Assembly: GCA_964622255.1 (NCBI GenBank)
Contig: CAZUPK010000098.1
Span: forward strand, 24,569 to 88,568
From: an uncultured Campylobacterales bacterium
GTDB lineage: Bacteria; Campylobacterota; Campylobacteria; Campylobacterales; QNZT01
Reading direction: 5' to 3'
DNA: 64,000 nt
Shown: positions 629-49,923 of the stretch, one piece after another
How positions within the stretch are numbered: the first letter of the stretch is position 1
Layout of the letters: each line of letters begins with the position of its first letter
Program-made: the position numbers and the translations under genes
Notes under the pieces: model-generated
What the model was told of the DNA's origin: nothing
What the model saw: only the letters and a program-made list of their open reading frames with translations
Database searches by the model: none

Positions 629-674
629 TTTTTCCTCTTTAATTTCTCAAGAGAAAAGCTCTCTTGAGGTTATA

Positions 675-2003
675 TTAGTTTAGTGCTACTTGTATGATTT
701 GACCTGCAACTATACCAAAATATATAGTCCCGGCTAATAATATAGTTTGTCCTATTAAAGCTCCGGTAGAAATAGTAGCTGTTTTCTCCTCTGTTGGAGC
801 ATCAAAGTAGATAAATTTTACAAGCCAAGCATAGTAAGCAACTGCCAAAGCTGAGTTTAAAAGTCCTACTAAAACTAAAGGCCAAAGTCCGGCATCAACA
901 CCTGCATAAAATGCCACCGCTTTTGATAAAAATCCTGCCAAAAGTGGAATACCTGCAAGTGAGAAAAGTTGAGCTGTAAAGAAAAATGCATAAACTCCCG
1001 ATCTCTCTCTGAGTCCTTTCAAATCCTCTATATACTTGATACCAAGATCTTTTCTAAGTCCATTTAATATCATAAAAACTGCTGTTTGCATAAATATATA
1101 TGCTATAGCATAGTATAAAACTCCACTATATGCATATTTACTAGCAATAGCCGCAAAAGGTATCAAAGCATAACCACTATGAGCAATAGAAGAGTATGCC
1201 AAAACTTTTGAAACTCTCTTTTGCCATAGTGCCATAAAGTTTGCCAAAGTCATAGTTACTACTGCAAAAAAACTAAAGATAACAACCGATACTGATGGGA
1301 AAGATTTAAAAAATGGACTAAATGCATTGAAAACTGCAACTAAAATCACACTCTTTACCAAGCCACTAAGTATTGCTGCAACTGCATGGTTTATTTGTGA
1401 GTAAGCATCCGATGCCCAACCATGCATAGGAACAATGGTAAGCTTATAAAAGATACCGGCTAACATAATAGCAGCTGCAACTAAGGCATATTTGCTATTT
1501 GAATCCATAGTTGCATAATCAAATGTAGGAGTAACTACTGTAAAGATAGCAAATCCTAAAAGTATAACACCACCGGCAACTGCACCTGCTATGAAAGTTT
1601 TTATAGCACCCTCTGCATTGTAGTAGTTTCTTATATTTGCTGCTAAAACATATGAAACAATAGCCATTGCTTCAAATAAAACTATAAAAACAAACATATT
1701 ATTTGTTTCTAAGATACCTAAACTTAAACCTCCAATAAATAGCATCTGTGAGAGCATAGGTCTTTCAAATCCGGTTAGAGATACTGAAACTGCAAAAAGT
1801 GCAATGAGTGTAACATACTCCATCAATCTTATAGAATCATCTGAACTAAAGTAGTTGAAATACTCGGACAAACTGTGACCGCCCACAATCATAAAAATAG
1901 ATAAAACAAATGCTACTGCAGTTATTATCTTACCAACAATTATATTTTTTTTATAGGATATAGGAACAATCAATCCTGCAATTATTAATATAGCAAAACT
2001 CAT
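675..2003 (-). CDS. nuoN: complex I-like antiporter-type subunit N
   Basis: 442 aa polytopic membrane protein of the NuoL/M/N (Mrp antiporter-like) family. Last gene of the nuo-like operon; its start overlaps the nuoM stop. Confidence 0.85.
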   Translation of the reverse strand: MSFAILIIAGLIVPISYKKNIIVGKIITAVAFVLSIFMIVGGHSLSEYFNYFSSDDSIRLMEYVTLIALFAVSVSLTGFERPMLSQMLFIGGLSLGILETNNMFVFIVLFEAMAIVSYVLAANIRNYYNAEGAIKTFIAGAVAGGVILLGFAIFTVVTPTFDYATMDSNSKYALVAAAIMLAGIFYKLTIVPMHGWASDAYSQINHAVAAILSGLVKSVILVAVFNAFSPFFKSFPSVSVVIFSFFAVVTMTLANFMALWQKRVSKVLAYSSIAHSGYALIPFAAIASKYAYSGVLYYAIAYIFMQTAVFMILNGLRKDLGIKYIEDLKGLRERSGVYAFFFTAQLFSLAGIPLLAGFLSKAVAFYAGVDAGLWPLVLVGLLNSALAVAYYAWLVKFIYFDAPTEEKTATISTGALIGQTILLAGTIYFGIVAGQIIQVALN

Positions 2004-3430
2004 TACATACCTCCAAGAAAGCTAAAAGCTTGATTAGCCAAGTCAAATATAGGTTGAGGCTTAATACCAAACAACACTATCAGTATCGCAAAAACAGTCA
2101 AGCCAACCCTTTTAGGAGTACCCATAACAAACTCCGTTTTTTCAACGAGTGGAGATATTTCACCGTGTATAGAGCGACGAACTGCCCAGATGATATAACC
2201 AGCAGTTACAAGTCCAGAAAGTGCTATAAATGCTATCCACCAACCAAAAGATTTAACAGCAGATACTATGATAGTAAGCTCTCCAACAAATCCCATAGTT
2301 CCAGGAAGTCCAAGTCCTGCCATACCAGCTAGAATAAATATTGCACTAATATATGGAGCTTTTTTCATAATACCACCCATCTCATCAAGATACCAAGTAT
2401 GAGTTTTATGGTGGAACCAACCGGCTATTAAGAACAGAGGTGATATAACAAGTGCATGTCCTACCATCTCATATAAAGCTGCACTTAAACCATCATAAGT
2501 CATAGTGCTTATAGCAACTACAACAAGTCCCATATGAGAAATAGACGAGTAAGCAACCATCTTTTTGATATGTCTTTCATAGATAGCAAGCATACCTGCA
2601 AAAAGAGTTGTTATCAAGCCTAAGGCCAACATATATTGTGCAAACTCTTTTGTAGTTTCTGGCATAAGTTCAACGGTAAATCTTATCAAACCATATGCAC
2701 CCATCTTAAGTAAAACACCGGCTAATAAAACCGATATTGAGCTTGGTGCTTCAACATGGGCATCTGGAAGCCAAGTATGAAATGGAAATGATGGAAGTTT
2801 TGCTGCAAACCCTATAAACATTAACCACCAAATAAGAGACGGAGTTGCTATAACAGCCTCTTTTATCATAGTTATATCCCAAACTCCTGTTTGTTTATAT
2901 AGTAAAAAAAATCCGACCAACATAAACATACTAGCTACATGAGTATATAGAAAAAATTTTACAGCTGCATATATTCTTTTTTCACCTCCCCAAACACCAA
3001 CTAAAAATAACATAGGTAAAAGTGTAAGTTCCCAAAATACAAAGAACCAAAGAACATTCGTAGTCATAAAAACTCCGAAGATTGGTCCACTAAACATAAC
3101 CAACAAACTAAAAAATGCACTCTGACTCTTTTCTTCCCAAGATGTTAAAGAGACTAATATAAGAAGTCCAGCTGTAAGTATCAACATAACAACACTAAGT
3201 GCATCAACTTGCAATCTCAAATCAAACCCAAACTGCGGTACAGCCAAGTATGTTCCCAAGTCCAACATCCCAATTTGAGGGAGTTGTAATAGCAAAATAA
3301 AAGCATACAAAAGCTGAAATCCAAACCATCCCATCGCTATATATTTGGCAATGCTTTGATTGTTCTTTGTCAACAAATAGATCACCACAGAGAAAAATGT
3401 AGGTAAAAATATTATCATTAATGCCATCAT
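2003..3430 (-). CDS. nuoM: complex I-like antiporter-type subunit M
   Basis: 475 aa. Motifs WLPDAHVEAP and VAYSSISHMG are typical of NuoM/ND4. One-nt overlaps with both neighbours. Confidence 0.85.
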   Translation of the reverse strand: MMALMIIFLPTFFSVVIYLLTKNNQSIAKYIAMGWFGFQLLYAFILLLQLPQIGMLDLGTYLAVPQFGFDLRLQVDALSVVMLILTAGLLILVSLTSWEEKSQSAFFSLLVMFSGPIFGVFMTTNVLWFFVFWELTLLPMLFLVGVWGGEKRIYAAVKFFLYTHVASMFMLVGFFLLYKQTGVWDITMIKEAVIATPSLIWWLMFIGFAAKLPSFPFHTWLPDAHVEAPSSISVLLAGVLLKMGAYGLIRFTVELMPETTKEFAQYMLALGLITTLFAGMLAIYERHIKKMVAYSSISHMGLVVVAISTMTYDGLSAALYEMVGHALVISPLFLIAGWFHHKTHTWYLDEMGGIMKKAPYISAIFILAGMAGLGLPGTMGFVGELTIIVSAVKSFGWWIAFIALSGLVTAGYIIWAVRRSIHGEISPLVEKTEFVMGTPKRVGLTVFAILIVLFGIKPQPIFDLANQAFSFLGGM

Positions 3431-5286
3431 TATAGCCCCTTCATTAACACTAAGATCATTACAACCATAATTGCAACTCCAATCACATACTGCCCCATAT
3501 AACTTCCTATTTGTCCAGTATGTCCCACTTTAAATGATTTATATACACCTTTAGTAGCAGGAACAGTTGCATTTACTAACCAATCAATAATATTTGTATC
3601 TACCCATCTTGCTGACTTTGCGATAGACTCAACTACTATATTTTTAGAAATCCAAGTTATCATTTTCTCAACATAATATCCGTTAAATAAAACTTGATGT
3701 ATTATCTTCATAAATGGATGTTGAGACATCTTTTCTAAAAGTCCTAAAGCTTTAACATAAGTTACAACAACTATGCTAAAGATAACTGCCATAGCTGCTA
3801 AAACCATAACTGTTAAACCCTTGATATGAGGCTCTATTTCCTTTTTATCTCCTAAGATAAAGTGAACTATATCTGTTTGCCATAAAGATATAACCAAAGT
3901 TATAAATGCCAAAACACCAAGAGGAGCTCTCATCCAAAAATTTGAGGGTGCATGCATATTTCCGTCTAACTCTTGATTTCTTGTCTCACCAACAAAGATG
4001 AGTAACCATAATCTTGTGATATAGGCTATAGATAAAAGTGCTGCCATAGTAGCAAAAACCTTCACAAATGGTGAACCTTGAGCTATAACAGAAGCTACAA
4101 CCATCTCTTTTGAGAAAAATCCACTAAATGGAGGAACACCAGCTAAACTTAAAGAGCCTACAGCCATAAAAAGTGCAACAAATGGAGCAGTTTTTATAAG
4201 ACCACCAAGTTTCCAAGCATCTTTAACATGGTGAGCTATATATATAACAGCACCGGCACTTAAAAATAGTAAAGCTTTAAAAATAGCATGGTTTACAAGA
4301 TGAAGCATACCAGCTGCAAGTGAACCAACTCCAAGGCCAACAAATGCTATAGAAAGATGTGACATAGTTGAATAAGCCAAAATCTTTTTGATCTCTTTTT
4401 GAACCAAAGCACTACTTGCACCGATAAATGCACTAAGTGCTGCTACATTTGCAACAACTAAAAGTGCTCCTGAAAACTCAAAAAAGTCAAACATTCTCGC
4501 AACTATATATATACCACTGTTAACCATAGTAGCACCGTGGATTAGAGCAGAAACTGTTGTAGGACCTTCCATTGCATTCATAAGCCAAGGATATAGAGGA
4601 AACTGACCAGACTTTCCAATAGCTCCCATAAAGATAAACATAGCTATAACAAAACCAGCAGTTTTATCTATCTCACCCTTTGATGCCAACTCATTTAACT
4701 CGATAAGATTTACAGTTCCTGTAAAATAGATCAAGAGTGCAATAGCCGCCAAGATAAAGATGTCTCCAAATCTTGTATATAAAAAGGCTTGCATACCGGC
4801 ACTTGCAGCAGATGGTTTGTAATACCAAAAGCTAATAAGTGCATAACTTGCAAGTCCCATAATCTCCCAACCAACAAAAGCACCTATTAAATCTTTTGTG
4901 CTAACAAGAAGAATCATACCACCGATAAAAAAAAGAACTTTTGCATAGTATCTTCCCTGATCCGGTTCATCACCCATATAGTCATGGGCAAAATGAATAT
5001 CAACCCAACCAAGTCCGGTTGCTATCAAAAGCATAGTTATCGAGAGATGATCTATATATATTCCAAATGGGAGTTTTAGATCACCATAAGCTATCCAAGT
5101 ATATGAGATATCTATAGGCTTTCCATTATGAGTAAAAAAGATAATCAAACTTCCCAAAAAGAAAAGTCCGCCTATAATCTCTGCAATCCAAAAAGGTATT
5201 TTCGAATCTACTCTACCACTAAGATAAGCTATAACAGCACCTACAAATGGAAGAACTAAAAGTATCAACAATGCACTATCTACCAT
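3430..5286 (-). CDS. nuoL: complex I-like subunit L (start trimmed to MVDSALL)
   Basis: NuoL/ND5 family with a long C-terminal extension. The ORF-track start at 5325 lies deep inside nuoK. The ATG at 5286 gives an 11-nt overlap and a typical N-terminus. Confidence 0.85.
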   Translation of the reverse strand: MVDSALLILLVLPFVGAVIAYLSGRVDSKIPFWIAEIIGGLFFLGSLIIFFTHNGKPIDISYTWIAYGDLKLPFGIYIDHLSITMLLIATGLGWVDIHFAHDYMGDEPDQGRYYAKVLFFIGGMILLVSTKDLIGAFVGWEIMGLASYALISFWYYKPSAASAGMQAFLYTRFGDIFILAAIALLIYFTGTVNLIELNELASKGEIDKTAGFVIAMFIFMGAIGKSGQFPLYPWLMNAMEGPTTVSALIHGATMVNSGIYIVARMFDFFEFSGALLVVANVAALSAFIGASSALVQKEIKKILAYSTMSHLSIAFVGLGVGSLAAGMLHLVNHAIFKALLFLSAGAVIYIAHHVKDAWKLGGLIKTAPFVALFMAVGSLSLAGVPPFSGFFSKEMVVASVIAQGSPFVKVFATMAALLSIAYITRLWLLIFVGETRNQELDGNMHAPSNFWMRAPLGVLAFITLVISLWQTDIVHFILGDKKEIEPHIKGLTVMVLAAMAVIFSIVVVTYVKALGLLEKMSQHPFMKIIHQVLFNGYYVEKMITWISKNIVVESIAKSARWVDTNIIDWLVNATVPATKGVYKSFKVGHTGQIGSYMGQYVIGVAIMVVMILVLMKGL

Positions 5287-5587
5287 CGTCCACCGCCCTA
5301 TCAAGATTGTCAGGAATAACTTCACCAGTCATTCTTGATGCTAATAAGAAGATTAAAACACCAGTTGCTGCCTCAAGTGTTGCTATAACTATGATGATAT
5401 AAGCTAAAGCTAAACCGTGAGTCAAACCTAAGTTATAAGTTGCACTTGCTAAAAATAGTATCACAGCATTTAGTAACATCTCCAAAGAAAAGAAGATTTT
5501 TAAAAAATCACTCTTACTAGTTACTCCATATAAACCTATTCCAAAAAGCACAATAGCAAATATGGAATCCACATAAAAACCACTCAT
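5276..5587 (-). CDS. nuoK: complex I-like subunit K
   Basis: 103 aa, three TM helices, LEMLLNAV motif typical of NuoK/ND4L. Confidence 0.85.
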   Translation of the reverse strand: MSGFYVDSIFAIVLFGIGLYGVTSKSDFLKIFFSLEMLLNAVILFLASATYNLGLTHGLALAYIIIVIATLEAATGVLIFLLASRMTGEVIPDNLDRAVDDGR

Positions 5588-6060
5588 AGTTCCTCCTTCT
5601 TCTCTTTTTTTAGAGTGTGTAGCATCCTAACACTCCCATAGAGAATACTTGTTGCAACAACTCCTAAAAATACTGCTATTTCTGAAAAAGAGTCTGTAAA
5701 TACTTTTATCTGCTCATTTAAGGGTATTATTTTAGGATTGGTTGGTTTTATAGGAAATACAAATGGAATAATCAAAAGTCCCACAACTATAACTAAAACA
5801 GTTGCGACCGCCCAATTTCTTGTCTCTTTCTTTGGAAAATCTGCTCCTATAACAGATACACCAAACAGTGTAAGAACAACTATACCACCGGTATATACAA
5901 ATATTTGAAATAATCCCAAAAGTTTTTCATCCATCATTATGTAGTAGATCCCAAGTAAAAACATCAACAACACAAATGCAAGTATTGAAGGAACTGTTTT
6001 CTCTTGAACCAAACTCATAACAGCAAGGACAATAACCAATGCCAATATCAATATACTCAC
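5584..6060 (-). CDS. nuoJ: complex I-like subunit J
   Basis: 158 aa membrane protein. Position and FVYTGGIVVL motif are typical of NuoJ/ND6. Confidence 0.8.
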   Translation of the reverse strand: MSILILALVIVLAVMSLVQEKTVPSILAFVLLMFLLGIYYIMMDEKLLGLFQIFVYTGGIVVLTLFGVSVIGADFPKKETRNWAVATVLVIVVGLLIIPFVFPIKPTNPKIIPLNEQIKVFTDSFSEIAVFLGVVATSILYGSVRMLHTLKKEKKEEL

Positions 6061-6590
6061 TGTTCATCTCCTTCCTCTTTTGTTTTAGTTTTAGCCTTTG
6101 CTTTAGCCTTTTCTTCAGCTTTCTTTTTTGCTAACATCTCAGCTTTTTTTCTCTTTTTTTCTTCTTCTTCTTTTTGCTTATCTTCTATCCAACCATCAGG
6201 GATATTTGCTCTAACCCAATACTCCGATATACTCTTATCATCACCTTCAACGACCATATCAAACTCTCCACCACTTAAGTAGATAGCCTTTTGAGGTTTT
6301 GTAGGACAAACATCTTCACAAAGTCCACAAAAGATGCAGATTCCAAGATTTACCTCAGGAAGTGCTTTTGGTTTTTTTATAGGAAGAGGAGACATAACAA
6401 TAGCATCAACCGGACATATCTTTTCACAAGCACCACAACCGGTGCAAATATCATATCTTACAACATGTTTACCTCTAAACATCGAAGATTGATGCACTTT
6501 TTCTTTTGAAACATCAGTAGTAGCTATGCGAGGTTCAGTTATAGACTTTACAACTTCACTCATCTTTTCTAGTATATCAAACAATATCAT
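6057..6590 (-). CDS. nuoI: complex I-like subunit I (2x[4Fe-4S] ferredoxin-type) with a Lys/Glu/Ala-rich C-terminal tail
   Basis: Two CxxCxxCxxxCP motifs (CTGCGACEKICP, CIFCGLCEDVCP). The tail is KQKEEEEKKRKKAEMLAKKKAEEKAKAKAKTKTKEEGDEQ. Confidence 0.85.
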   Translation of the reverse strand: MILFDILEKMSEVVKSITEPRIATTDVSKEKVHQSSMFRGKHVVRYDICTGCGACEKICPVDAIVMSPLPIKKPKALPEVNLGICIFCGLCEDVCPTKPQKAIYLSGGEFDMVVEGDDKSISEYWVRANIPDGWIEDKQKEEEEKKRKKAEMLAKKKAEEKAKAKAKTKTKEEGDEQ

Positions 6591-6591
6591 A

Positions 6592-7590
6592 TTACATTCC
6601 TAAAAGATATATTTTGGCAAAAGATATCCAAACAAGATTTAGTATAGCAGCCGGTGTTAACCAACTCCAACTAAACTTAAGCATCTGATCCAACCTCAAA
6701 CGAGGTGTTGCTGCTCTTACTACAAGCACTATAAATAGTAAAACGGTAATCTTTATAAATAGCCACCAAAAACTATCCATAAAAATCCCCTGATAACCAC
6801 CAAAGAAGAGAACCGCCGCAGTTGCTGAGACTACTAAAAATTCCATATTTTCAGCAAGTTTTAAAAGGACATAATTTGTTCCCGAATACTCGGTATAAAA
6901 ACCATACACTATCTCTTGTTCAGCTTCTGGTATATTAAAGGGTGGTTGTTGCAAAATTCCCAACATAGAGATTACAAATAAAACTGCTCCGGGTAAAAGT
7001 ATCAAAGTAGAAGTAAAGCTACTTTGTGTTTGAATATTATAAAGATTCATAGTCCCAAAAAAAAGTGCAGGAGATAGAGCCGACAAGAAAAATGCCGCTT
7101 CCATAGATAGCATTTGAACTAAAACTCTCATACCACCTAAAAAGGAGTATTTATTATCAGAACCAAAACCAGTTAAAAATAGCAAAAATGGTTCAACTCC
7201 TATCAAAACAACTATACCCAAGAGTCCATATTGAGTATCTAAAATACCATGTCCATTGTTTATCAAAGGAGTCCATGGTATTAAGATAACAGGAAGCGAA
7301 GCAATAACAGGAGTTAATATCGGTATGATATTAAACAGATATGTATCTGCTGTTCTTGGAGTTATAGACTCTTTTCCAAGAAGTTTAAATATATCAAACA
7401 CTGTTTGATAAGCTCCCCCAGGTCCATTGTAGTGAGGACCAACTCTTCTATGAATATAGGCTAAAGCTTTCCTAAAAAAGTAAAAAGCAAAAAAGGTCCA
7501 TGCAAGAAGAAATAAAATTCCCGGAAAAACAAAAACATAAAATAGTATTTCACCAAAACCCATCATTCCCTCCTTATCTATCCAAGTCAC
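6592..7590 (-). CDS. nuoH: complex I-like subunit H
   Basis: 332 aa polytopic protein with RRVGPHYNGPGG, EAEQEIV.GF.TEYSG and PRLRLDQ motifs typical of NuoH/ND1. Confidence 0.9.
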   Translation of the reverse strand: MTWIDKEGMMGFGEILFYVFVFPGILFLLAWTFFAFYFFRKALAYIHRRVGPHYNGPGGAYQTVFDIFKLLGKESITPRTADTYLFNIIPILTPVIASLPVILIPWTPLINNGHGILDTQYGLLGIVVLIGVEPFLLFLTGFGSDNKYSFLGGMRVLVQMLSMEAAFFLSALSPALFFGTMNLYNIQTQSSFTSTLILLPGAVLFVISMLGILQQPPFNIPEAEQEIVYGFYTEYSGTNYVLLKLAENMEFLVVSATAAVLFFGGYQGIFMDSFWWLFIKITVLLFIVLVVRAATPRLRLDQMLKFSWSWLTPAAILNLVWISFAKIYLLGM

Positions 7591-9223
7591 CTTGACAAAT
7601 ATTCATACTTCCGTAAAGTAGTGATATATCTGACAAAGTTTTTCCACGAAGCATTGGATCAAGAACAAGTGTGTGATTTAAACTCGGTGCCTTTATCTTT
7701 AACCTATATGGACTTGTAGCTTTATCCTGAGTAACTAAGTGCATAAGCATTTCACCTCTTGCCCACTCAACTCTACTTACAGCCTCACCTGCTGGCATCT
7801 TTCTTGGCATTTTGACCATATGATCTTTTTTAGGATCCATCTTACCAACTTCGACACCCTCTTCTATTTTTTTCATAGCTTGTTCCATCAAATCTGCAGA
7901 TTGTTTTAATTCTTTAAATAGCATAAGAAGTCTATCTCTTGCATCCCCATTTTTTTCAAGCTCAAAATCCATCTTAAGATCACCATAACCTGCATAAGGC
8001 TCGTTTAATCTTACATCAACCTTCTCTCCAATTGCTCTAGCTATTGGTCCGCATAGATAGTATTTTTCCATATCATCTGAAGTAAATATACCTGCACCTA
8101 CTGCTCTTGTAGCCATAAGGGGATTTTCTACAAAAATACTCTCCAACTCCTCTTTATGTTTTTCAAACTTTTTTATAGCTTTTCTAACAGATGCAAAAAA
8201 AGCTTTATAATCCTCAAGTGGATATCTAACCCCACCCGGTTCTATACAAGCAGTTGCTATTCTAGCTCCACTATAGTTATCAAGAACATCAAGATAGCTC
8301 TCTCTTATATCAAGAAGCCACATCATAAAGGTCATAAGTCCCATATTTCCAAAAAAACTTCCCATAGAAACAAGATGCGATGCACTTCTTCCAACCTCTC
8401 CTAAAATAACCCTCATATATTTTGCAAAAGGCGTTATTTCTTTTCCTGCTATCTCTTCAACAGCTTGAGCATAGCAAATCATAGGGTTTGTATTGTCCAT
8501 AAAACAAACCCTTTCAACTGCAACGATGGCACCTATGAAATCTTTTCTTGTTACAAGATCTTCCAAAGCTCTCCAAACATACCCTATATCAAGTTCAACC
8601 TTTTTTATTATCTCACCATCTGCTGTAACTTTAAGTCTTATAGGTCCGCTTGCAGGATGGGTAGGTCCCCAGTTTAAAATAGTTTGACTACTACTTTTAT
8701 CTGCACTTTTTTCTACTTCTTCATACTCATCATAATACTCTTGAGTTATTTCACCAATATTTTCTATAAGTTTTTTCTCGTGTTCTAAATAGTCAAAATC
8801 TTTTCTAAAAGGATAGAGTCCATAATAATCTGTACTTATCAAAAAATATCTAAGATCCGGATGACCTTTAAATTTTACTCCAAAAGTTGAGTAACTTTCT
8901 AACTCGTGCCAATCGGCACTTGGCATAAGTGGAGTTATAGAGTCTATCTCACACTTATCAAGTTCCCTTGGAATATCTACTTTTAGCCAAACATGGCGAT
9001 GTTTTTTCATATCTTCTAAAAAGTAGTTTATCTCCATCTTATTATCTTCCAAAAAGTCGGTAGGAGATACGGTAGAGCAACTTTTTACCCCCTCTTTTAC
9101 CAAATCCTCTATAACTTTAAGCAAGTCGCCTGGATTTTTTAGCTTTGCTTTTACATATATTTTTTTGTATTCTTTTATGTATTGTGTTTCAAACTTTGAA
9201 AGTATATTTTTTATATTTTCCAT
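7574..9223 (-). CDS. nuoCD: fused NuoC-NuoD module (divergent NuoD part)
   Basis: 549 aa. The N-terminal third is NuoC-like (SADWHELESYSTFGV.F.GHPDLR). The C-terminal part is NuoD-like (LNWGPTHP..IRL, DIGY, C-terminal GSMNICQGDLDR). Overlaps the nuoH start by 17 nt. Confidence 0.8.
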   Translation of the reverse strand: MENIKNILSKFETQYIKEYKKIYVKAKLKNPGDLLKVIEDLVKEGVKSCSTVSPTDFLEDNKMEINYFLEDMKKHRHVWLKVDIPRELDKCEIDSITPLMPSADWHELESYSTFGVKFKGHPDLRYFLISTDYYGLYPFRKDFDYLEHEKKLIENIGEITQEYYDEYEEVEKSADKSSSQTILNWGPTHPASGPIRLKVTADGEIIKKVELDIGYVWRALEDLVTRKDFIGAIVAVERVCFMDNTNPMICYAQAVEEIAGKEITPFAKYMRVILGEVGRSASHLVSMGSFFGNMGLMTFMMWLLDIRESYLDVLDNYSGARIATACIEPGGVRYPLEDYKAFFASVRKAIKKFEKHKEELESIFVENPLMATRAVGAGIFTSDDMEKYYLCGPIARAIGEKVDVRLNEPYAGYGDLKMDFELEKNGDARDRLLMLFKELKQSADLMEQAMKKIEEGVEVGKMDPKKDHMVKMPRKMPAGEAVSRVEWARGEMLMHLVTQDKATSPYRLKIKAPSLNHTLVLDPMLRGKTLSDISLLYGSMNICQGDLDR

Positions 9224-9236
9224 ACCCTTACCGCCT

Positions 9237-9710
9237 TTAAAACTTCATTTCTTTCCAAAGACCACCTTGACTTGAAGCACTTGGCTCACCTCTTTTGATC
9301 TTTTCTTTTAAGTCTTCCAAACCAGCGATAATTGCTTCAGGTCTTGGAGGACAACCGGCAACAAAAACATCAGCTGGTAATATCTCGGTCATATTTTTTA
9401 TAACTGAAACAGAGTCATTGTAAGGACCACCATCATATGCACACGCTCCAAGAGCCACAACATATCTAGGCTCTGGCATCTGAGCATAGGTTCTTAAAAG
9501 TGCAGGTAGTATCTTTTTACTCACAAGTCCGGTTATGAACATAATATCAGCCTGTCTAGGAGTGGGTGCCATCAAATACCCATATCTTTCCCAGTCAAAT
9601 CTAGGTCCCATTGATGCCAACATCTCAAGAGAACAACAACCACTACAAAAGTGGACAATCCACGGAGATTTACTCCTCGCATAGTTAAAAAAATCAAGCA
9701 CTTTTAGCAT
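9237..9710 (-). CDS. nuoB: complex I-like subunit B (N2 cluster carrier)
   Basis: Tandem CC (GCCSLEM), SPRQAD-like PRQADIM, GACAYDGG and GCPPRPE motifs are all present. Confidence 0.9.
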   Translation of the reverse strand: MLKVLDFFNYARSKSPWIVHFCSGCCSLEMLASMGPRFDWERYGYLMAPTPRQADIMFITGLVSKKILPALLRTYAQMPEPRYVVALGACAYDGGPYNDSVSVIKNMTEILPADVFVAGCPPRPEAIIAGLEDLKEKIKRGEPSASSQGGLWKEMKF

Positions 9711-10032
9711 TTCTGTATTCCTTCATAGATATTGTAATTGCAGCAAATAGTAAACTTCCAAATACTATAGCCCAACCTATTGCAGTTTTTGACTGCGAAA
9801 AAACAAACAGACTGAAAAAAAGCCCAGCCATATCAAAAACTATAAATGCAATAGCAAATATAAAATAGTTAAAGTTAGCTTTTTTAGGCACTTCACTACT
9901 TGGCGGTAATCCACACTCAAAGTGGTCCACTTTTATACCATCAGGATTATAAGGTGCAACCCCTATTCCTAATAGATACAAGAGTAAAACACCAACTGTT
10001 ATACCGACAATAAAAATCAAAACAGTATCCAT
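9694..10032 (-). CDS. nuoA: complex I-like subunit A (start trimmed to MDTVLIF)
   Basis: NuoA/ND3-like (FECGLPP motif). The ATG at 10032 is preceded by AGGAGAG at good spacing. The ORF-track start at 10071 adds 13 unlikely residues. Confidence 0.8.
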   Translation of the reverse strand: MDTVLIFIVGITVGVLLLYLLGIGVAPYNPDGIKVDHFECGLPPSSEVPKKANFNYFIFAIAFIVFDMAGLFFSLFVFSQSKTAIGWAIVFGSLLFAAITISMKEYRNAKSA

Positions 10033-11227: not shown

Positions 11228-12418
11228 TTATGTTAGTGATGCTGTTTGGTGAAGATCTATTATCTTTAGATAAAACTTCTTATCATCCATTTCTTCTAAG
11301 AGTCCGTTTGATGGGAAAAAATCTGGGAATTTATTTATCAACTTTTTCCATCTTTTTTTATATAGAGAGCTTAAAAATATAGCCGATATCTCTTTCCTAA
11401 CCAAAACTGCCGGAGGTAAAAGTCCTTGAAGCATAAGCTCTTCTATAAATTCACTTTTGTATGATATATGGTGGTGGGTTCCATGTGGACAAGTCTTTGT
11501 GCTAACTAAAGTTTTACATTCATTACAATAAACATACTCACTGCTTACCTCTATGCTAAACTCATCACTATCAAACCTATCAACTATGGAGTTAGTTCCA
11601 TACTTATCATAAAAGAGTCCTATTCCGGAGTGGTTTTGCCCTACACTTATGGCATCACAACCAAAGTTTTTTGCAGCTAGTGCATCTAAAAAAACATTGT
11701 TATACCCTGCAAATATATAGGTATTTTCAAAGGGAACTATTAAGACTTTATTTTTTGGCAAAAAGTTATCTGTGTAATATTTTAGTGCTTCATATCTAAG
11801 CTCATATGAAAATTTATCTTTTTTATATGGTTTAAGTAAAAATAGCACTATCATATCACTCTTTTCAAGGGCATCTCTTATCATTCTTTCATGTCCCCTA
11901 TGAAGAGGTTTTGCCGCCATCATAATAGCCGTTACTTTTTTAGCATTTACCAACTCTTTTTGTTTTTTTATAAGCCTTTTTATCTCTTTGACAAAAGTTG
12001 TATCAACCTCATACTCTCCACTTACAGCAAACTTTCCAAGTCTTCTTAAAGTGTCTTTTACTCCGGGATGAGATGCATCAGTTGTAGCAAATATCTGTTC
12101 TACTCTTTTTAACCTATCTATCTTAAAAACTTCATCAACCTTTAGCTCACCACACTTTTTACCATCCTCTACTAAATCAACAATATCCCCACTTTTTAAA
12201 GATTCTAAAACTTTTGCATTTCTTTTTCCACTTGGAGCTAGAATAAAAGGGAAAGGGAAAAAGTGTCCTTTGTAGGATGAAGTTTGTTCAACACTTTTTG
12301 ACTCATTTTGATTCATCAACTTATCAACAGGTGACAAAATCCCCTCTTTAACTAAAGCAAGAGTTGCCAAAGCTTCTTTATCTATATACAGAGCTTTATC
12401 TCTTTTTTGTGATCCCAT
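11228..12418 (-). CDS. ATP-sulfurylase-fold protein with a non-canonical substrate motif
   Basis: HRGH (HxxH) nucleotidyltransferase motif, GQNHSGIG in place of GRDHAG, and a C-terminal CxxC..CPH..ISY..L..G..PP region, colinear with sulfate adenylyltransferase. The track start at 12460 is a TTG; the first ATG at 12418 is used here. Confidence 0.55.
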   Translation of the reverse strand: MGSQKRDKALYIDKEALATLALVKEGILSPVDKLMNQNESKSVEQTSSYKGHFFPFPFILAPSGKRNAKVLESLKSGDIVDLVEDGKKCGELKVDEVFKIDRLKRVEQIFATTDASHPGVKDTLRRLGKFAVSGEYEVDTTFVKEIKRLIKKQKELVNAKKVTAIMMAAKPLHRGHERMIRDALEKSDMIVLFLLKPYKKDKFSYELRYEALKYYTDNFLPKNKVLIVPFENTYIFAGYNNVFLDALAAKNFGCDAISVGQNHSGIGLFYDKYGTNSIVDRFDSDEFSIEVSSEYVYCNECKTLVSTKTCPHGTHHHISYKSEFIEELMLQGLLPPAVLVRKEISAIFLSSLYKKRWKKLINKFPDFFPSNGLLEEMDDKKFYLKIIDLHQTASLT

Positions 12419-25420: not shown

Positions 25421-25503
25421 AATTTTATCCTTTGTTTTTGTTCTTAAAACTACAATCGGATAAAGTAAAAATTTTATTAACATTTTAAAACATTTGTCAT
25501 ACA

Positions 25504-26424: not shown

Positions 26425-26444
26425 AATAGTTCCTATATTTTTTT

Positions 26445-47043: not shown

Positions 47044-47367
47044 ATGGCTGATAATATTATGCCAGCACCAGAAAATACACCGGTGTGGGTTGATATAAGT
47101 AGATGTAAAGCTTGTGATATATGTGTTGATGTTTGCCCAGCAGGAGTTTTAGCTATGGTTGTATCAGATCAAACTATTTTGGGATCAACTATCAGTGTTC
47201 AAGTTCCAGAAGCTTGTATAGGTTGTAACGATTGTGAACTTCACTGTCCAGATTTTGCTATCTATGTAGCAACAAGAAAAGAGTATAAGTTTGCAAAACT
47301 TACAAGTGAAGCTAAAGAGAGAGCTGAGAAGATAAAAGCAAATAACTATATGGCACTAAGTGCATAA
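47044..47367 (+). CDS. oorD: 2-oxoglutarate:acceptor oxidoreductase delta (2x[4Fe-4S]) subunit
   Basis: CKACDICVDVCP and CIGCNDCELHCP. First gene of an oorDABC arrangement, as in Campylobacter and Helicobacter. Confidence 0.8.
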   Translation: MADNIMPAPENTPVWVDISRCKACDICVDVCPAGVLAMVVSDQTILGSTISVQVPEACIGCNDCELHCPDFAIYVATRKEYKFAKLTSEAKERAEKIKANNYMALSA

Positions 47368-47376
47368 GGAGAGAAT

Positions 47377-48519
47377 ATGGCAAGAGAGATAGTATCAAGT
47401 GGTAACTCATTGTGTGCATTGGCTGCATATGATTGCGGTTGTGAATTTTTCGGTGGGTATCCTATCACACCTTCAAGTGAGATAGCTCACGATTTAAGTG
47501 TTTTACTTCCTAAAAAGGGACATAAGTTTATCCAGATGGAAGATGAAATAGCTGGAATCTCTGCAGCTCTTGGAGCTAGTATGAGTGGTAAGATGGCTAT
47601 GACTGCAACAAGTGGACCGGGGATAAGTCTTAAAGCTGAGCAAATAGGTTTAGGTTTTATAGCAGAAACTCCTCTAGTTATAGTAAATGTTATGAGAGGT
47701 GGACCCTCAACAGGACTTCCAACAAGAGTTTCTCAAGCAGATATTGGACAAGCAAAATATCCAACTCACGGAGACTATGCATCTATAACTTTATGTCCTG
47801 GAAGTTTAGAAGAGTGTTATACTGAGACAATAAGAGCTTTTAATTTAGCTGAAAAGTATATGACTCCTATTTTTGTTTTACTTGATGAAACTATCGGACA
47901 TATGCATGGAAAAGCTGTTTTACCTGATCTTGAAGAGGTGGAAAATGCAGTAACAAGAAGAGCAGAATATACCGGAGATCCAGCTGATTATAGGCCTTAT
48001 GAAGCACAGATGAATAAACCTGCTGTATTAAATCCTTTCTTTAAAGGTTACAGATATCATATAACAGGACTTCAGCACGGACCTACAGGTTTTCCAACAG
48101 AGGATAAAGATATGTGTGCATATAATATAAAAAGACTTGTTGGAAAAATTCAAGAGGTAGGAAAGTTAGATGATAAACCTGATTATGAAGAGTTTATGTT
48201 AGATGATGCAGAGGTTTGTATGATAGCTTATGGAAGTATCTCCAGAGGTGCGAAAGAGGCTGTTATGAAGTTAAGAGAAGAGGGTATAAAAGCTGGACTT
48301 TTCAGACCTATTATGCTTTGGCCTAGTCCTGCTGAAAAGATAAAAGAGATTGGTGAGAGATTTGAAAAAATCTTTATAACAGAGCTTAACCAAGTTGGTC
48401 AATATACTGAAGAGATAGAAAGAATCACAGGTAGAAAAGACTTTGCAACTTTAAGGACTGCAAATGGGAGACCTATACCACCACTAGATATGGTAGCAAA
48501 AGTAAAGGAGATGTTCTAA
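47377..48519 (+). CDS. oorA: 2-oxoglutarate:acceptor oxidoreductase alpha subunit
   Basis: 380 aa, 2-oxoacid:ferredoxin oxidoreductase alpha family (GYPITPSSE, TSGPG). Confidence 0.9.
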   Translation: MAREIVSSGNSLCALAAYDCGCEFFGGYPITPSSEIAHDLSVLLPKKGHKFIQMEDEIAGISAALGASMSGKMAMTATSGPGISLKAEQIGLGFIAETPLVIVNVMRGGPSTGLPTRVSQADIGQAKYPTHGDYASITLCPGSLEECYTETIRAFNLAEKYMTPIFVLLDETIGHMHGKAVLPDLEEVENAVTRRAEYTGDPADYRPYEAQMNKPAVLNPFFKGYRYHITGLQHGPTGFPTEDKDMCAYNIKRLVGKIQEVGKLDDKPDYEEFMLDDAEVCMIAYGSISRGAKEAVMKLREEGIKAGLFRPIMLWPSPAEKIKEIGERFEKIFITELNQVGQYTEEIERITGRKDFATLRTANGRPIPPLDMVAKVKEMF

Positions 48520-49349
48520 TGGCTTTTAATTATGATAAATATTTAAGAACTGATAAGATGCCAACACTATGGTGTTGGGGATGTGGAGATGGAGTTATTC
48601 TAAAAGCTGTGATCAGAGCGATCGATAAAATAGGATGGGATATGGATGATGTTTGTGTGGTTTCTGGTATCGGGTGTTCAGGAAGATTTTCTTCTTACAT
48701 CGATTGTAACACAGTTCATACAACTCACGGTAGGGTTGTTGCTTATGCTACAGGTATAAAGCTTGCAAATCCAGATAAACATGTGATTATGGTAACAGGA
48801 GATGGAGATGGACTTGCAATCGGTGGAAACCATACCATACACGGGTGTAGAAGAAATATAGACTTAAATCATATAGTTGTAGATAACTTTATTTATGGTT
48901 TGACTAACTCCCAAACCTCTCCTACTACTCCTCAGGGTATGTGGACGGTAACTGCTCAATATGGAAGCATAGATCCTACTTTTGATGCTTGTAAGTTAGC
49001 TGAGGGTGCTGGAGCTACTTTTATAGCAAGAGAGAGTGTAAACGATCCTAAAAAGTTAGAAAAAGTGTTTGTAGAAGGGTTTAGACATAAAGGATACTCT
49101 TTCTTTGATGTATTTAGTAACTGCCATATCAACCTTGGTAGAAAAAATGCTATGAAAAATGCTATGGAGAACTTAGATTGGATAGATAGCATTACGATTT
49201 CTAAGAAAAAATATGACAAGATGAGTGAAGAGGAGAGAGAAGGTAAGTTCCCTACCGGTATCTTAAAACAAGTTGAGAAGCCTGAGTATTGTGAGTTGTA
49301 TGACAAAGTTATAGAGGCTGCTCAAAATAAAACTAAAGTAAAACTGTAA
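48519..49349 (+). CDS. oorB: 2-oxoglutarate:acceptor oxidoreductase beta (TPP) subunit
   Basis: WCWGCGDG, GIGCSGR and GDGDGLAIGGNH TPP/Fe-S motifs. Confidence 0.9.
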   Translation: MAFNYDKYLRTDKMPTLWCWGCGDGVILKAVIRAIDKIGWDMDDVCVVSGIGCSGRFSSYIDCNTVHTTHGRVVAYATGIKLANPDKHVIMVTGDGDGLAIGGNHTIHGCRRNIDLNHIVVDNFIYGLTNSQTSPTTPQGMWTVTAQYGSIDPTFDACKLAEGAGATFIARESVNDPKKLEKVFVEGFRHKGYSFFDVFSNCHINLGRKNAMKNAMENLDWIDSITISKKKYDKMSEEEREGKFPTGILKQVEKPEYCELYDKVIEAAQNKTKVKL

Positions 49350-49359
49350 GGAGGATAAG

Positions 49360-49923
49360 ATGAGAAATCAACTAAGATTTACAGGTGTTGGTGGACAGGG
49401 TGTTCTTCTTGCAGGAGAGATTTTGGCAGCAGCTAAGATTAGTGATGGAGGATATGGGGTAAAAGCAGCAACTTATACATCTCAAGTTAGAGGTGGACCT
49501 ACTGTTGTTGATATTTTACTCGATGATAAAGAGATACTCTTTCCTTATGCGATAGATGGTGAGATAGAGTTTATGCTTTCGGTTGCAGATGTTAGTTTTC
49601 AACAGTTTAAAAATGGAGTGAAAGAGGGTGGTATCATCGTTATAGATCCAGATCTTGTTCATCCTAGTGATGAAGATAGAAAAAAATGGAAAATCTATGA
49701 GATACCTATCATCAGAATAGCAAAATATGAAGTGGGAAATGTTGTAACTCAGTCAGTTGTGGCACTAGCTATAGCTGTAGAGATGACAAAAGTTATGGAT
49801 AAAGAGAAAGTGTTAGAGACTATGAAGAAAAAGGTTCCTGCAAAAGTTCTTGATGCTAACTTAAAGGCTTGGGAGTTCGGTGAAAAATATGCTAAAGAGG
49901 CACTAGAAACTCAGGAGAAATAA
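49360..49923 (+). CDS. oorC: 2-oxoglutarate:acceptor oxidoreductase gamma subunit
   Basis: 187 aa. The R..G.GGQG N-terminus is typical of the gamma subunit. Confidence 0.85.
   Translation: MRNQLRFTGVGGQGVLLAGEILAAAKISDGGYGVKAATYTSQVRGGPTVVDILLDDKEILFPYAIDGEIEFMLSVADVSFQQFKNGVKEGGIIVIDPDLVHPSDEDRKKWKIYEIPIIRIAKYEVGNVVTQSVVALAIAVEMTKVMDKEKVLETMKKKVPAKVLDANLKAWEFGEKYAKEALETQEK

What the first reader, a model, noticed from the sequence alone, without database searches (positions are those of the whole stretch)
675..10032. Complex I-like operon with only the 11 core modules (nuoA-B-CD-H-I-J-K-L-M-N) and no NuoE/F/G electron-input module
- **Seen in sequence:** Ten minus-strand genes are packed with overlaps or gaps of a few nt. 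The nuoCD coding region overlaps the nuoH start by 17 nt (7574-7590), so there is no room for nuoE, nuoF or nuoG where they normally sit. The flanking genes are a BON-like gene upstream and a transaldolase-like gene downstream, so neither flank supplies them.
- **Established knowledge:** NuoEFG carries the NADH/FMN site. Eleven-subunit relatives (cyanobacterial NDH-1, archaeal Fpo) use ferredoxin or F420 instead. C. jejuni complex I replaces NuoE/F, keeps NuoG, and is fed by flavodoxin.
- **Inference:** This enzyme is probably not an NADH dehydrogenase. A low-potential carrier (ferredoxin or flavodoxin) reduced by the 2-oxoglutarate oxidoreductase encoded at 47044-49923 in the same window is a plausible donor.
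Basis: partly seen in the sequence, partly recalled or inferred. Interest (0 to 1): 0.7.

Follow-up and report, generated by a model that had tools for sequence, protein, structure and literature searches.

The report
Complex I-like pump lacking NADH module
This is a real ten-gene operon for a complex I-like proton pump with no NADH-oxidising module, a type already described in Nautilia-group vent bacteria, and its substrate pocket resembles an archaeal sulfur reductase more than a normal quinone site.

Summary
Ten co-directional genes at 675-10032 (minus strand) encode NuoA, B, fused C-D, H, I, J, K, L, M and N. No NuoE/F/G-type domain occurs in the operon or in any of the ~50 other window ORFs scanned.

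It is not new. The source is an uncultured hydrothermal-vent Nautiliaceae. This architecture was reported for Nautilia profundicola, whose complete genome lacks nuoEFG (Campbell 2009), and was named 'NUO10' by Degli Esposti (2015).

It remains untested. Naming 2-oxoglutarate oxidoreductase as the donor is doubtful, because relatives fix CO2 by the reverse TCA cycle, where that enzyme consumes reduced ferredoxin.

Thermus Nqo4 His38 is deleted, Tyr87 is Phe, Asp139 is Asn, and Cys sits at two former NiFe-ligand positions, exactly as in MbsL of the archaeal sulfane reductase MBS. NuoB keeps the complex I tandem-Cys motif. NuoH and the membrane arm are clearly complex I-type with pumping residues intact.

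Best reading: a reversible ferredoxin:menaquinone-type pump. A sulfane-sulfur acceptor is not excluded.

The parts
9694..10032 (-). nuoA (112 aa from ATG 10032; the longest ORF starts at TTG 10071)
   Evidence: PF00507 hit; AAGGAGAGG Shine-Dalgarno upstream of ATG 10032; public gene calls give 112 aa
9237..9710 (-). nuoB (157 aa), carrier of the proximal [4Fe-4S] cluster (N2 equivalent)
   Evidence: NF005012 185.5 bits, above its cut-off of 116; gapless alignment to mitochondrial PSST with the tandem CC conserved; 142 bits to MbsJ, equal to the best complex I hits
9633..9647 (-). NuoB Cys22-x-x-Cys25-Cys26 motif (FCSGCCSLE): complex I-type tandem Cys plus one extra upstream Cys
   Evidence: conserved in 7 of 7 Nautiliaceae loci and in the Aquificota relative. 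By offset, C22/C25/C90/C120 correspond to MbsJ C25/C28/C93/C123
7574..9223 (-). nuoCD fusion (549 aa)
   Evidence: PF00329 + PF00346. The NuoD equivalog model NF004739 scores 299.5, below its cut-off of 360. NCBI names some Nautilia homologues 'subunit D-related protein'
8642..8668 (-). NuoD beta1-beta2 loop GPTHPASGP: the residue equivalent to Thermus Nqo4 His38 is deleted, giving the same loop length as MbsL
   Evidence: Alignments; the motif is present in 119 of 120 homologues
8495..8506 (-). NuoD Cys240-Phe241-Met-Asp243 (Thermus positions 86, 87, 89): first NiFe-ligand Cys kept, Tyr87 replaced by Phe, second NiFe-Cys position is Asp
   Evidence: ER[IV]CFMD in 120 of 120 homologues
7586..7597 (-). 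NuoD C-terminal Cys543-x-x-Asp546 (Thermus positions 403 and 406; MbsL C385 and D388)
   Evidence: ICQGDLDR in 120 of 120 homologues
6592..7563 (-). nuoH (323 aa from ATG 7563), complex I-type, with an intact TM5-6 coupling loop PFNIPEAEQEIVYGFYTEYSG
   Evidence: 148.5 bits to Thermus Nqo8 and 146.6 to E. coli NuoH, against 67.6 to MbhM and 62.8 to MbsM; GGAGG at 7573-7569
6057..6590 (-). nuoI (177 aa), with two CxxCxxCxxxCP motifs for two [4Fe-4S] clusters; the likely electron entry or exit point
6060..6191 (-). NuoI C-terminal E/K/R/A-rich tail (residues 134-177), predicted as one long helix
   Evidence: Sequence. Present in 7 of 7 Nautiliaceae loci with lengths of 69-204 aa (counted from residue 111) and near-neutral net charge. 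Absent from the Aquificota NuoI. Helix 134-173 with block pLDDT of about 65-91 in an otherwise poor model
5584..6060 (-). nuoJ
   Evidence: PF00499
5276..5587 (-). nuoK, with a conserved Glu in each of two predicted TM helices (SLEML, ATLEAA)
   Evidence: PF00420; sequence
3430..5286 (-). nuoL (618 aa by public gene calls; the longest ORF starts at 5325), matching the NuoL model over its full length including the C-terminal region that forms the lateral helix in complex I
   Evidence: TIGR01974 429 bits, above its cut-off of 407.5, matched over model positions 3-629 of 630; TM5 Glu154 and TM12 Lys406; gene call
2003..3430 (-). nuoM
   Evidence: TIGR01972 408 bits, above its cut-off of 263.8. 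251 bits to NdhD1 and 245 to E. coli NuoM, against 110 to MbsH and 103 to MbhH. Equivalents of E. coli E144, K234, K265 and E407 are all present
675..2003 (-). nuoN
   Evidence: PF00361; best NCBIfam match TIGR01770 at 207 bits, below its cut-off of 332.6; TM5 Glu111 and TM12 Lys361
47044..49923 (+). Context only: oorDABC-type 2-oxoacid:ferredoxin oxidoreductase at the end of an acnB-icd-mdh-fumAB-sucCD cluster (36562-47024). It shares the low-potential carrier pool but is not part of the complex
   Evidence: Pfam hits

Best explanation
The operon encodes an N-module-less, complex I-like redox-driven proton pump of the type already described in Nautiliales ('NUO10': NuoA, B, C-D fused, H, I, J, K, L, M, N).

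Shown here:
- All 11 core modules are present and intact.
- The three [4Fe-4S] binding motifs are complete: two in NuoI, and a tandem-Cys N2-type site in NuoB.
- NuoH and the antiporter-like subunits are complex I-type and keep the coupling loop and the Glu/Lys pumping residues.
- No NADH/FMN module is encoded in the operon or the window.

Inferred:
- Electrons enter or leave through NuoI from a soluble low-potential carrier (ferredoxin or flavodoxin).
- They pass through the three clusters to a pocket formed by NuoCD, NuoB and NuoH.
- There they are exchanged with a membrane-soluble carrier, most probably menaquinone. Every characterised enzyme with this type of membrane arm uses a lipid-soluble carrier, and four pumping modules fit the roughly 400 mV ferredoxin-to-menaquinone span.
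- The pocket is atypical: no His38 or Tyr87 equivalents, and two Cys plus two Asp at the old NiFe positions, as in MbsL. Headgroup binding and protonation must therefore differ from textbook complex I.
- In a hydrogen-oxidising reverse-TCA autotroph, the physiologically important direction may be the reverse one: menaquinol plus proton-motive force reducing ferredoxin for 2-oxoglutarate and pyruvate synthases. The forward direction would operate when carbon reserves are oxidised.
For: - Gene identities and order.
- Same operon in 7 of 7 Nautiliaceae loci (one contig-truncated after nuoK) and, with C and D unfused, in an Aquificota contig.
- Fe-S motifs.
- NuoH and NuoM score 2-2.4 times higher against complex I/NDH-1 than against MBS/MBH, with key residues conserved.
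- No E/F/G domains in the window.
- Complete N. profundicola genome lacks nuoEFG (PMC2628731); the NUO10 class is defined by absence of the N-module from the genome (PMC4758237).
- In the Aquificota relative the operon lies directly downstream of a ferredoxin-dependent Ech hydrogenase operon, a hint of a shared ferredoxin pool.
- The 11-subunit enzyme of Desulfitobacterium behaves as a rotenone-sensitive menaquinol producer, with ferredoxin/PFOR as candidate donor (PMC11238625).
- Reverse TCA and the need for reduced ferredoxin in Nautiliales.
- TCA and oor genes in the window.
Against: - No donor has been shown for any Nautiliales enzyme.
- No ferredoxin, flavodoxin or docking-subunit gene is adjacent, and flanks are not conserved.
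- The canonical quinone ligands are missing: His38 deleted, Tyr87Phe, Asp139Asn. This holds in all 120 homologues.
- NuoD falls outside the canonical NuoD radiation in 78 of 100 NJ bootstraps.
- Thermus Nqo8 Glu35 is Phe in this NuoH.
- This organism is known only from metagenome contigs, so NuoEFG-like genes elsewhere in its genome cannot be excluded here.
- Relatives also carry Ech-type hydrogenases that could make reduced ferredoxin, so the reverse role may be redundant.
Confidence: 0.55

Rival explanations
1. The pocket substrate is sulfane sulfur (polysulfide), not menaquinone. The enzyme would be a ferredoxin-dependent, proton-pumping sulfur reductase that joins an MBS-like catalytic pocket to a complex I-type membrane arm.
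For: - The NuoD pocket matches MbsL at every diagnostic position: shortened beta1-beta2 loop without the His38 equivalent, no Tyr87, no MbhL Glu21 equivalent, Cys at MbsL C85 and C385, acidic residues at the other two NiFe positions.
- NuoB aligns with MbsJ without net indels, at 142 bits, and has Cys at all four MbsJ Cys positions.
- NuoD groups with MbsL and group-4 hydrogenases rather than canonical NuoD in 78 of 100 bootstraps.
- The variant is found in Nautiliales and Aquificota, and the cultured members named in the cited papers are sulfur reducers.
- The respiratory sulfur reductase of Thermovibrio, Desulfurobacterium and Caminibacter is described as unknown, and Desulfurobacterium lacks psr, sqr and mbs (PMC5441870; PMC12724263).
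Against: - MBS catalysis is attributed to a proximal cluster with only three Cys ligands. Here the fourth ligand is present as the complex I tandem CC.
- The two MbsL cysteines are dispensable for MBS activity, so sharing them says little about chemistry.
- NuoH and the whole membrane arm are complex I-type, not Mrp/MBS-type.
- Overall NuoD similarity is higher to complex I (165-193 bits) than to MbsL (144).
- The ferredoxin-to-polysulfide span is smaller than ferredoxin-to-menaquinone and fits four pumping modules less well (established redox potentials; inference).
- N. profundicola already has periplasmic PsrABC.
Confidence: 0.18
2. It is still an NAD(P)H-linked enzyme. A NuoEFG-like or other dehydrogenase module (for example a hydrogenase or formate dehydrogenase diaphorase part) encoded elsewhere docks onto NuoI, and the complex produces NAD(P)H by reverse electron transport or oxidises it.
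For: - Campbell 2009 proposed reverse electron transport to NAD(P)H through an unknown acceptor module.
- The Desulfurobacterium HR11 study treats a separate nuoGFE operon as part of the same enzyme.
- This organism's full genome is not available.
Against: - The complete N. profundicola genome lacks nuoE, F and G.
- In Thermovibrio the EFG genes belong to a separate, complete second nuo cluster.
- No association of an EFG module with the 11-subunit enzyme has been shown.
- No such genes occur in the 64-kb window.
Confidence: 0.12
3. The operon is a decaying or non-functional remnant of a 14-gene nuo operon.
For: Several subunits (D, H, I, N, A, J, K) score below NCBIfam equivalog cut-offs.
Against: - All ten ORFs are intact with tight spacing.
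- Fe-S ligands, coupling loop and pumping residues are conserved.
- The unusual motifs are invariant over 120 homologues at 66-100% identity, and shared with Aquificota at 45% identity.
- NuoC and NuoI of the Desulfurobacterium homologue were detected by proteomics.
Confidence: 0.02

Closest known systems
Nautiliales 'NUO10' / partial complex I of Nautilia profundicola and Caminibacter mediatlanticus (Campbell 2009; Degli Esposti 2015)
   Same: Same ten-gene order with fused NuoC-D and no NuoEFG. NuoCD is 67-72% identical to Nautilia, Lebetimonas and Caminibacter proteins. The pocket substitutions are the ones Degli Esposti described: His38, Tyr87 and Asp139 lost, Cys at positions 86 and 403.
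   Different: A different, uncultured species known only from vent metagenomes. The flanking genes differ from those in other Nautiliaceae.
Desulfurobacteriaceae/Aquificota 11-gene nuoABCDHIJKLMN cluster
   Same: Nearest outgroup, with NuoD 45% identical. Same HPASGP loop, C-F-x-D and C-x-x-D motifs, and same NuoB CSGCC motif.
   Different: NuoC and NuoD are separate genes. NuoI lacks the long E/K-rich tail. In the contig examined the operon follows an ech hydrogenase operon.
MBS (Mbx), the membrane-bound sulfane-sulfur reductase of Pyrococcus furiosus (PDB 6U8Y)
   Same: Ferredoxin-type input without an N-module. MbsL-like pocket signature at all diagnostic NuoD positions. NuoB and MbsJ are the same length and share Cys positions.
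   Different: MBS has an Mrp-type membrane arm with a Na+/H+ module and only three Cys ligands on the proximal cluster. This enzyme has a NuoA/H/J/K/L/M/N arm and the tandem-Cys fourth ligand.
Cyanobacterial/chloroplast NDH-1 and other bacterial 11-subunit complex I-like enzymes (Chlorobium, Bacteroides, Desulfitobacterium)
   Same: The same 11 core modules and no NuoEFG. Ferredoxin is the shown (NDH-1) or proposed donor. NuoM is most similar to NdhD1.
   Different: The NDH-1 structures compared and the other canonical representatives keep the His38 and Tyr87 quinone ligands (reported for NdhH). NDH-1 also has extra ferredoxin-docking subunits, none of which was seen next to this operon.
Archaeal Fpo (F420H2:methanophenazine oxidoreductase)
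   Same: An 11-subunit core. FpoD also lacks the His38 equivalent and keeps Cys at positions 86 and 403.
   Different: FpoD keeps Tyr87, and Fpo has FpoF/FpoO for F420. NCBIfam Fpo models score far below their cut-offs here.
Campylobacter jejuni / Helicobacter-type complex I
   Different: That enzyme keeps NuoG and has Cj1574/Cj1575 in place of NuoE/F inside the operon. There is no room for them here. Degli Esposti treats the other epsilonproteobacterial clusters as derived from 14-gene operons, unlike the Nautiliales type.

Membership tests
N-module-less 11-subunit complex I-like enzymes (NUO11/NUO10 class) | All 11 core modules (A, B, C, D, H, I, J, K, L, M, N) encoded together | tested here: met
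   Pfam and NCBIfam hits for each; same order in relatives
N-module-less 11-subunit complex I-like enzymes (NUO11/NUO10 class) | No NuoE/F/G in the operon | tested here: met
   Junctions of -50 to +13 nt; 10-nt spacer at the C-D/H junction
N-module-less 11-subunit complex I-like enzymes (NUO11/NUO10 class) | No NuoE/F/G anywhere in the genome | not testable with these tools
   Absent from the 64-kb window. The organism is known only from metagenome contigs. Absence is reported for the complete N. profundicola genome.
Nautiliales NUO10 subtype (Degli Esposti 2015) | NuoC fused to NuoD | tested here: met
   A 549-aa protein with both domains
Nautiliales NUO10 subtype (Degli Esposti 2015) | NuoD lacks His38, Tyr87 and Asp139 and keeps Cys at Thermus positions 86 and 403 | tested here: met
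   Alignments to Thermus Nqo4; invariant in 120 homologues
Canonical NADH:quinone oxidoreductase (complex I) | NADH/FMN input module NuoEFG | tested here: not met
   Not in the operon or the window
Canonical NADH:quinone oxidoreductase (complex I) | Quinone headgroup ligands His38 and Tyr87 in NuoD | tested here: not met
   His38 deleted, Tyr87 replaced by Phe
Canonical NADH:quinone oxidoreductase (complex I) | Tandem-Cys ligation motif of cluster N2 in NuoB | tested here: met
   GCCSLEM aligns with ACCAVEM of PSST; the other two Cys are present
Canonical NADH:quinone oxidoreductase (complex I) | NuoH plus a NuoA/J/K/L/M/N membrane arm with conserved Glu/Lys | tested here: met
MBS (membrane-bound sulfane reductase) | MbsL-type pocket: no His38, Tyr87 or MbhL-Glu21 equivalents; two of four NiFe Cys retained | tested here: met
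MBS (membrane-bound sulfane reductase) | Proximal [4Fe-4S] with only three Cys ligands (site-differentiated iron) | tested here: not met
   A fourth Cys (C26) is present in the complex I tandem position. Whether it actually ligates the cluster cannot be told from sequence.
MBS (membrane-bound sulfane reductase) | Mrp-derived membrane arm (MbsA-H, H') with a Na+/H+ module | tested here: not met
   The membrane subunits match NuoA/J/K/L/M/N models. NuoH and NuoM score 2-2.4 times higher against complex I than against MBS.
Group-4 [NiFe] hydrogenases (Ech/Mbh/Hyc) | Four Cys ligands of the NiFe site in the large subunit | tested here: not met
   The four positions read C, D, C, D
Campylobacter-type complex I | NuoG plus Cj1574/Cj1575-like genes between nuoD and nuoH | tested here: not met
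   No genes lie between nuoCD and nuoH
Fpo (F420H2 dehydrogenase) | FpoF/FpoO input subunits; Fpo-specific subunit models | tested here: not met
   NCBIfam Fpo models score far below their cut-offs (for example FpoD 243 against 600). None of the scanned window ORFs matched anything named as FpoF or an F420-dehydrogenase subunit.

The most novel reading that the evidence does not exclude
The Nautiliales/Aquificota enzymes form a distinct, early-branching class that joins a complex I-type four-module proton pump to an MBS-type pocket. Their physiological acceptor would be sulfane sulfur or polysulfide, or a non-quinone substrate bound at a 2Cys/2Asp remnant of the NiFe site, rather than menaquinone. 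That would supply the missing energy-conserving sulfur reductase of Desulfurobacterium, Thermovibrio and Caminibacter. It would also be a living intermediate between MBS and complex I.
Probability: 0.17. Interest if true: 0.8.

Novelty: new member of a known kind. Interest (0 to 1): 0.33.

Why it matters

The interest lies one level deeper. The donor and the acceptor of this class have never been determined. The pocket of the Nautiliales/Aquificota enzymes is the closest bacterial counterpart of the archaeal sulfane reductase MBS, while the rest of the machine is complex I.

These organisms are abundant primary producers at hydrothermal vents, and for several of them the energy-conserving sulfur reductase is unknown. 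Settling what this enzyme reduces would clarify their energy budget, in particular how they obtain reduced ferredoxin for CO2 fixation. It would also inform the order of events in complex I evolution.

Tried and rejected
- **Source genome:** an exact 60-mer search of the species-representative genome collection found nothing, so the genome could not be fetched. A protein-pattern scan gave only seven Nautiliaceae MAG loci at 70-72% identity.
- **NuoI tail as ferredoxin dock:** I first read the tail as a Lys-rich docking surface like the one proposed for Methanothrix FpoI (from memory). In seven relatives its net charge is about zero, its length varies from 69 to 204 aa, it is missing in the Aquificota enzyme, and it is predicted as a single long helix. 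The idea is downgraded to an unexplained feature.
- **Conserved neighbour gene:** a search for a dedicated ferredoxin, flavodoxin or docking subunit found none. Flanks differ between genera.
- **Promoter and terminator scan:** promoter-like sites are at chance level (40 found, 42 expected) and terminator-like sites are not clearly above it (10 found, 5.4 +/- 2.9 expected). Neither is used as evidence.
- **Filing as MBS:** rejected, because two defining features fail (tandem-Cys fourth ligand, complex I membrane arm).
- **Filing as a hydrogenase:** rejected, because two of the four NiFe Cys are lost.
- **Phylogeny:** the first NJ tree with midpoint rooting had no support values, so it was redone with bootstraps. 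Relationships inside the hydrogenase/MBS side remain unresolved (support 1-35).
- **NuoI structure model:** the single-sequence AlphaFold model is unreliable outside the tail (mean pLDDT 47). No structure search was run on it.
- **Repeated PDB search:** one search repeated the NuoB search to obtain alignments, but only the PSST alignments were printed. The MbsJ correspondence therefore rests on coordinate offsets, not on a printed alignment.

Full report
**1. The observation**

Ten minus-strand ORFs lie between 675 and 10071. Profile searches identify them as NuoA, NuoB, a fused NuoC-NuoD protein of 549 aa, NuoH, NuoI, NuoJ, NuoK, NuoL, NuoM and NuoN. With longest-ORF coordinates the junctions range from a 50-nt overlap to a 13-nt gap.

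The flanks are a transaldolase-family gene and a gene with a sub-threshold BON domain, followed by pgpA and an ATP-sulfurylase gene. I scanned about 50 further ORFs across the window (most ORFs of at least 90 aa). None has a NuoE, NuoF or NuoG domain, and none is a free-standing ferredoxin or flavodoxin. The 2-oxoacid:ferredoxin oxidoreductase genes at 47044-49923 are real. They close an acnB-icd-mdh-fumAB-sucCD-oorDABC cluster.

Two details needed checking:
- The 17-nt nuoCD/nuoH overlap comes from taking the longest ORF. The nuoCD stop codon is followed by GGAGG and two ATG codons, and public gene calls start NuoH at 7563. A 10-nt spacer is therefore more likely.

Neither point changes the conclusion that E, F and G cannot fit.

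**2. Whose genome**

An identical NuoCD protein and operon occur on contigs from several hydrothermal-vent metagenomes. No species-representative genome contains the sequence. The closest named proteins are from Nautilia, Lebetimonas and Caminibacter at 67-72% identity. Seven Nautiliaceae metagenome-assembled genomes carry the same gene order, as far as each contig extends. The source is therefore an uncultured member of the Nautiliaceae (Campylobacterota).

**3. Already published**

- Campbell et al. 2009 reported that the complete N. profundicola genome has the nuo genes except E, F and G. (They also missed K.) They noted the same structure in Caminibacter mediatlanticus, and proposed an unknown alternative module and reverse electron transport.
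- Degli Esposti 2015 named the arrangement NUO10, meaning NuoC-D fused and no N-module in the genome. He called it the most ancestral nuo operon and noted that its NuoD lacks His38, Tyr87 and Asp139 and keeps two vestigial NiFe cysteines.
- The idea that 11-subunit enzymes take electrons from ferredoxin or another partner is standard, though unproven outside photosynthetic NDH-1.

**4. The acceptor pocket**

A residue-level alignment with Thermus Nqo4 shows four changes. His38 is deleted, Asp86 is Cys, Tyr87 is Phe and Asp139 is Asn. The catalytic Glu21 of the hydrogenase MbhL corresponds to Gly. At the C-terminus, Thermus Val403 is Cys. These motifs are invariant in 120 homologues of 66-100% identity.

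I searched 1.8 billion cluster representatives with the NuoD half. The family is isolated. One Nautiliales cluster lies at 61%, one Aquificota cluster at 45% with the same motifs, and everything else is at or below 38%.

Classifying the 150 best representatives by the four old NiFe-ligand positions separates several groups:
- canonical complex I (D/N, Y ... V/I, E)
- true group-4 hydrogenases (C, G ... C, C)
- Fpo (C, Y ... C, E)
- a set of 'Cys, non-Tyr ... Cys' proteins

One neighbouring group of that last set is the MBS/Mbx family, because its member P0225 hits MbsL of PDB 6U8Y at 291 bits. The printed alignment let me recover the MbsL sequence, and its numbering reproduces the published C85 and C385.

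In one alignment the four NiFe positions read as follows:

| Enzyme | NiFe-ligand positions |
|---|---|
| Hydrogenases | C, C, C, C |
| MbsL | C, E, C, D |
| This window and its relatives | C, D, C, D |
| Thermus Nqo4 | D, H, V, D |

The window and MbsL also share the one-residue-shorter beta1-beta2 loop. The MBS structure paper lists exactly these features as distinguishing MBS from complex I and MBH: no His38, Tyr87 or Glu21 equivalents, and two of four Cys kept.

In a bootstrapped NJ analysis the window/Nautiliales/Aquificota clade is monophyletic in 100 of 100 replicates. In 78 of 100 it lies with MbsL and all hydrogenases on one side of a split, with every canonical NuoD on the other. Finer relationships are unresolved.

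**5. The rest of the enzyme is complex I**

- **NuoB.** It aligns without gaps to mitochondrial PSST and keeps the tandem cysteines and the other two N2 ligands. It also has an extra Cys three residues upstream, giving CxxCC. That extra Cys corresponds by position to the non-ligating C25 of MbsJ. NuoB scores the same against MbsJ as against the best complex I subunits. The motif is conserved in all relatives, including Aquificota.
- **Consequence for MBS-like catalysis.** A complete Cys set is available for the proximal cluster, so the mechanism proposed for MBS, a cluster iron without a Cys ligand, is not indicated by sequence.
- **NuoH.** It scores 147-149 bits against Thermus and E. coli NuoH but 63-68 against MbsM and MbhM, and keeps the TM5-6 coupling loop. 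Thermus Glu35 is Phe.
- **NuoM.** It scores 245-251 bits against NuoM and NdhD but 103-110 against MbsH and MbhH. It keeps the four key charged residues.
- **NuoL, M and N.** They show the complex I pattern of TM5 Glu and TM12 Lys/Glu/Lys.
- **NuoK and NuoL.** NuoK keeps both glutamates. NuoL matches the full NuoL model, including the C-terminal part that forms the lateral helix.

The enzyme is therefore a mosaic: a complex I scaffold and N2 site under an MBS-like pocket ceiling.

**6. Partner and direction**

Nothing next to the operon suggests a partner. The flanks differ between genera. In one Aquificota contig the operon directly follows an echABCDEF operon for a ferredoxin-dependent hydrogenase, which is weak support for a ferredoxin link.

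NuoI carries an E/K/R/A-rich C-terminal tail in all Nautiliaceae. The tail has near-neutral charge and variable length, and is predicted as one long helix. It is absent in the Aquificota enzyme. I do not count it as evidence for ferredoxin docking.

Cultured relatives are hydrogen-oxidising, sulfur- or nitrate-reducing autotrophs that use the reverse TCA cycle and need reduced ferredoxin. The window's hypA gene shows that this organism also matures [NiFe] hydrogenases. In that physiology 2-oxoglutarate oxidoreductase consumes reduced ferredoxin.

**7. Weighing the acceptor**

For menaquinone:
- Every characterised enzyme with this membrane arm uses a lipid-soluble carrier.
- NuoH is conserved.
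- Four pumping modules match the ferredoxin-menaquinone span.
- The Desulfitobacterium 11-subunit enzyme behaves as a menaquinol producer.
- Fpo shows that His38 is dispensable for a membrane carrier.

For sulfane sulfur:
- The pocket matches MbsL.
- The variant is found in Nautiliales and Aquificota, whose cultured members named in the cited papers reduce sulfur.
- The respiratory sulfur reductase of Thermovibrio, Desulfurobacterium and Caminibacter is unknown.

Against sulfane sulfur:
- The fourth Cys ligand is present.
- The shared cysteines are dispensable in MBS.
- N. profundicola already has Psr.

I put menaquinone-type coupling at about 0.55 and sulfane sulfur at about 0.18. In the searchable library I found no paper that links these bacterial enzymes to the sulfane-reductase function of MBS established in 2018-2020. 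Degli Esposti's 2015 remark that they 'presumably' work like Mbx predates that work.

**8. Verdict**

The operon is a new, uncultured member of the described Nautiliales NUO10 type. The residual interest is the unresolved chemistry of its MBS-like pocket.

**Limits**
- The organism's whole genome was not available.
- The MbsJ comparison rests on coordinate offsets.
- The phylogeny is distance-based.
- No multi-subunit structural model could be made.

Noticed in passing
window 6060-6191 (NuoI residues 134-177): NuoI ends in an E/K/R/A-rich tail that is predicted as one long helix. The tail is present in all seven Nautiliaceae relatives, with lengths of 69-204 aa and net charge near zero. One relative (L006) adds a long Pro/Ala/Lys-rich extension. 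The tail is absent from the Aquificota homologue. Its function is unknown.
   Followed up: partly
window 9633-9647 (NuoB Cys22-x-x-Cys25-Cys26): NuoB combines the MBS/hydrogenase-like CxxC spacing with the complex I tandem CC in one CxxCC motif. The motif is conserved from Nautiliaceae to Aquificota. Which cysteines ligate the cluster is unknown.
   Followed up: partly
window 8495-8506 and 7586-7597 (NuoD C240, D243, C543, D546): The four former NiFe-ligand positions read Cys, Asp, Cys, Asp, and are invariant in 120 homologues. This could be a vestige, a redox-active Cys pair or a metal site. It was not tested.
   Followed up: no
L012 3270-8394 (Aquificota metagenome contig): A six-gene Ech-type [NiFe] hydrogenase operon lies directly upstream of, and co-directional with, the 11-gene nuo operon that is the closest outgroup of the window's enzyme.
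   Followed up: partly
window 645-669: A 10-bp-stem hairpin (TCTCAAGAGAAAAGCTCTCTTGAGG) sits in the 43-nt spacer between the nuoN stop and the start of the transaldolase gene. It may be the operon terminator or an attenuator.
   Followed up: no
window 11228-12460 and 12396-13289: An ATP-sulfurylase (sat) gene lies three genes upstream of the nuo operon (after pgpA and the BON-like gene). As a longest ORF it overlaps a response-regulator gene by about 65 nt. The Nautilia PV-1 study lists this enzyme among proteins that change together with sulfur respiration. The neighbourhood is not conserved in other Nautiliaceae.
   Followed up: no
window 31501-31878: A hypA nickel-insertion gene stands alone, with no other hydrogenase maturation genes nearby in the window.
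   Followed up: no
window ~25500-26500 and ~55600: Gene orientation and GC skew switch together. Genes are on the minus strand with negative skew up to about 26.4 kb, on the plus strand with positive skew to about 55.6 kb, and on the minus strand again after that. The cumulative-skew minimum near 26 kb could mark a replication origin, or simply reflect gene-strand bias.
   Followed up: no
window 57829-59514 (region 58000-60000, GC 0.25): A predicted AAA-ATPase with a PD-(D/E)XK nuclease domain lies in the lowest-GC stretch of the window. This may be a mobile or defence-related insertion.
   Followed up: no
window 6592-7590 (NuoH residue aligned to Thermus Nqo8 Glu35): The conserved Glu of NuoH TM1 (Thermus Glu35, E. 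coli Glu36) is Phe here. Conservation of this change across the clade was not checked.
   Followed up: no
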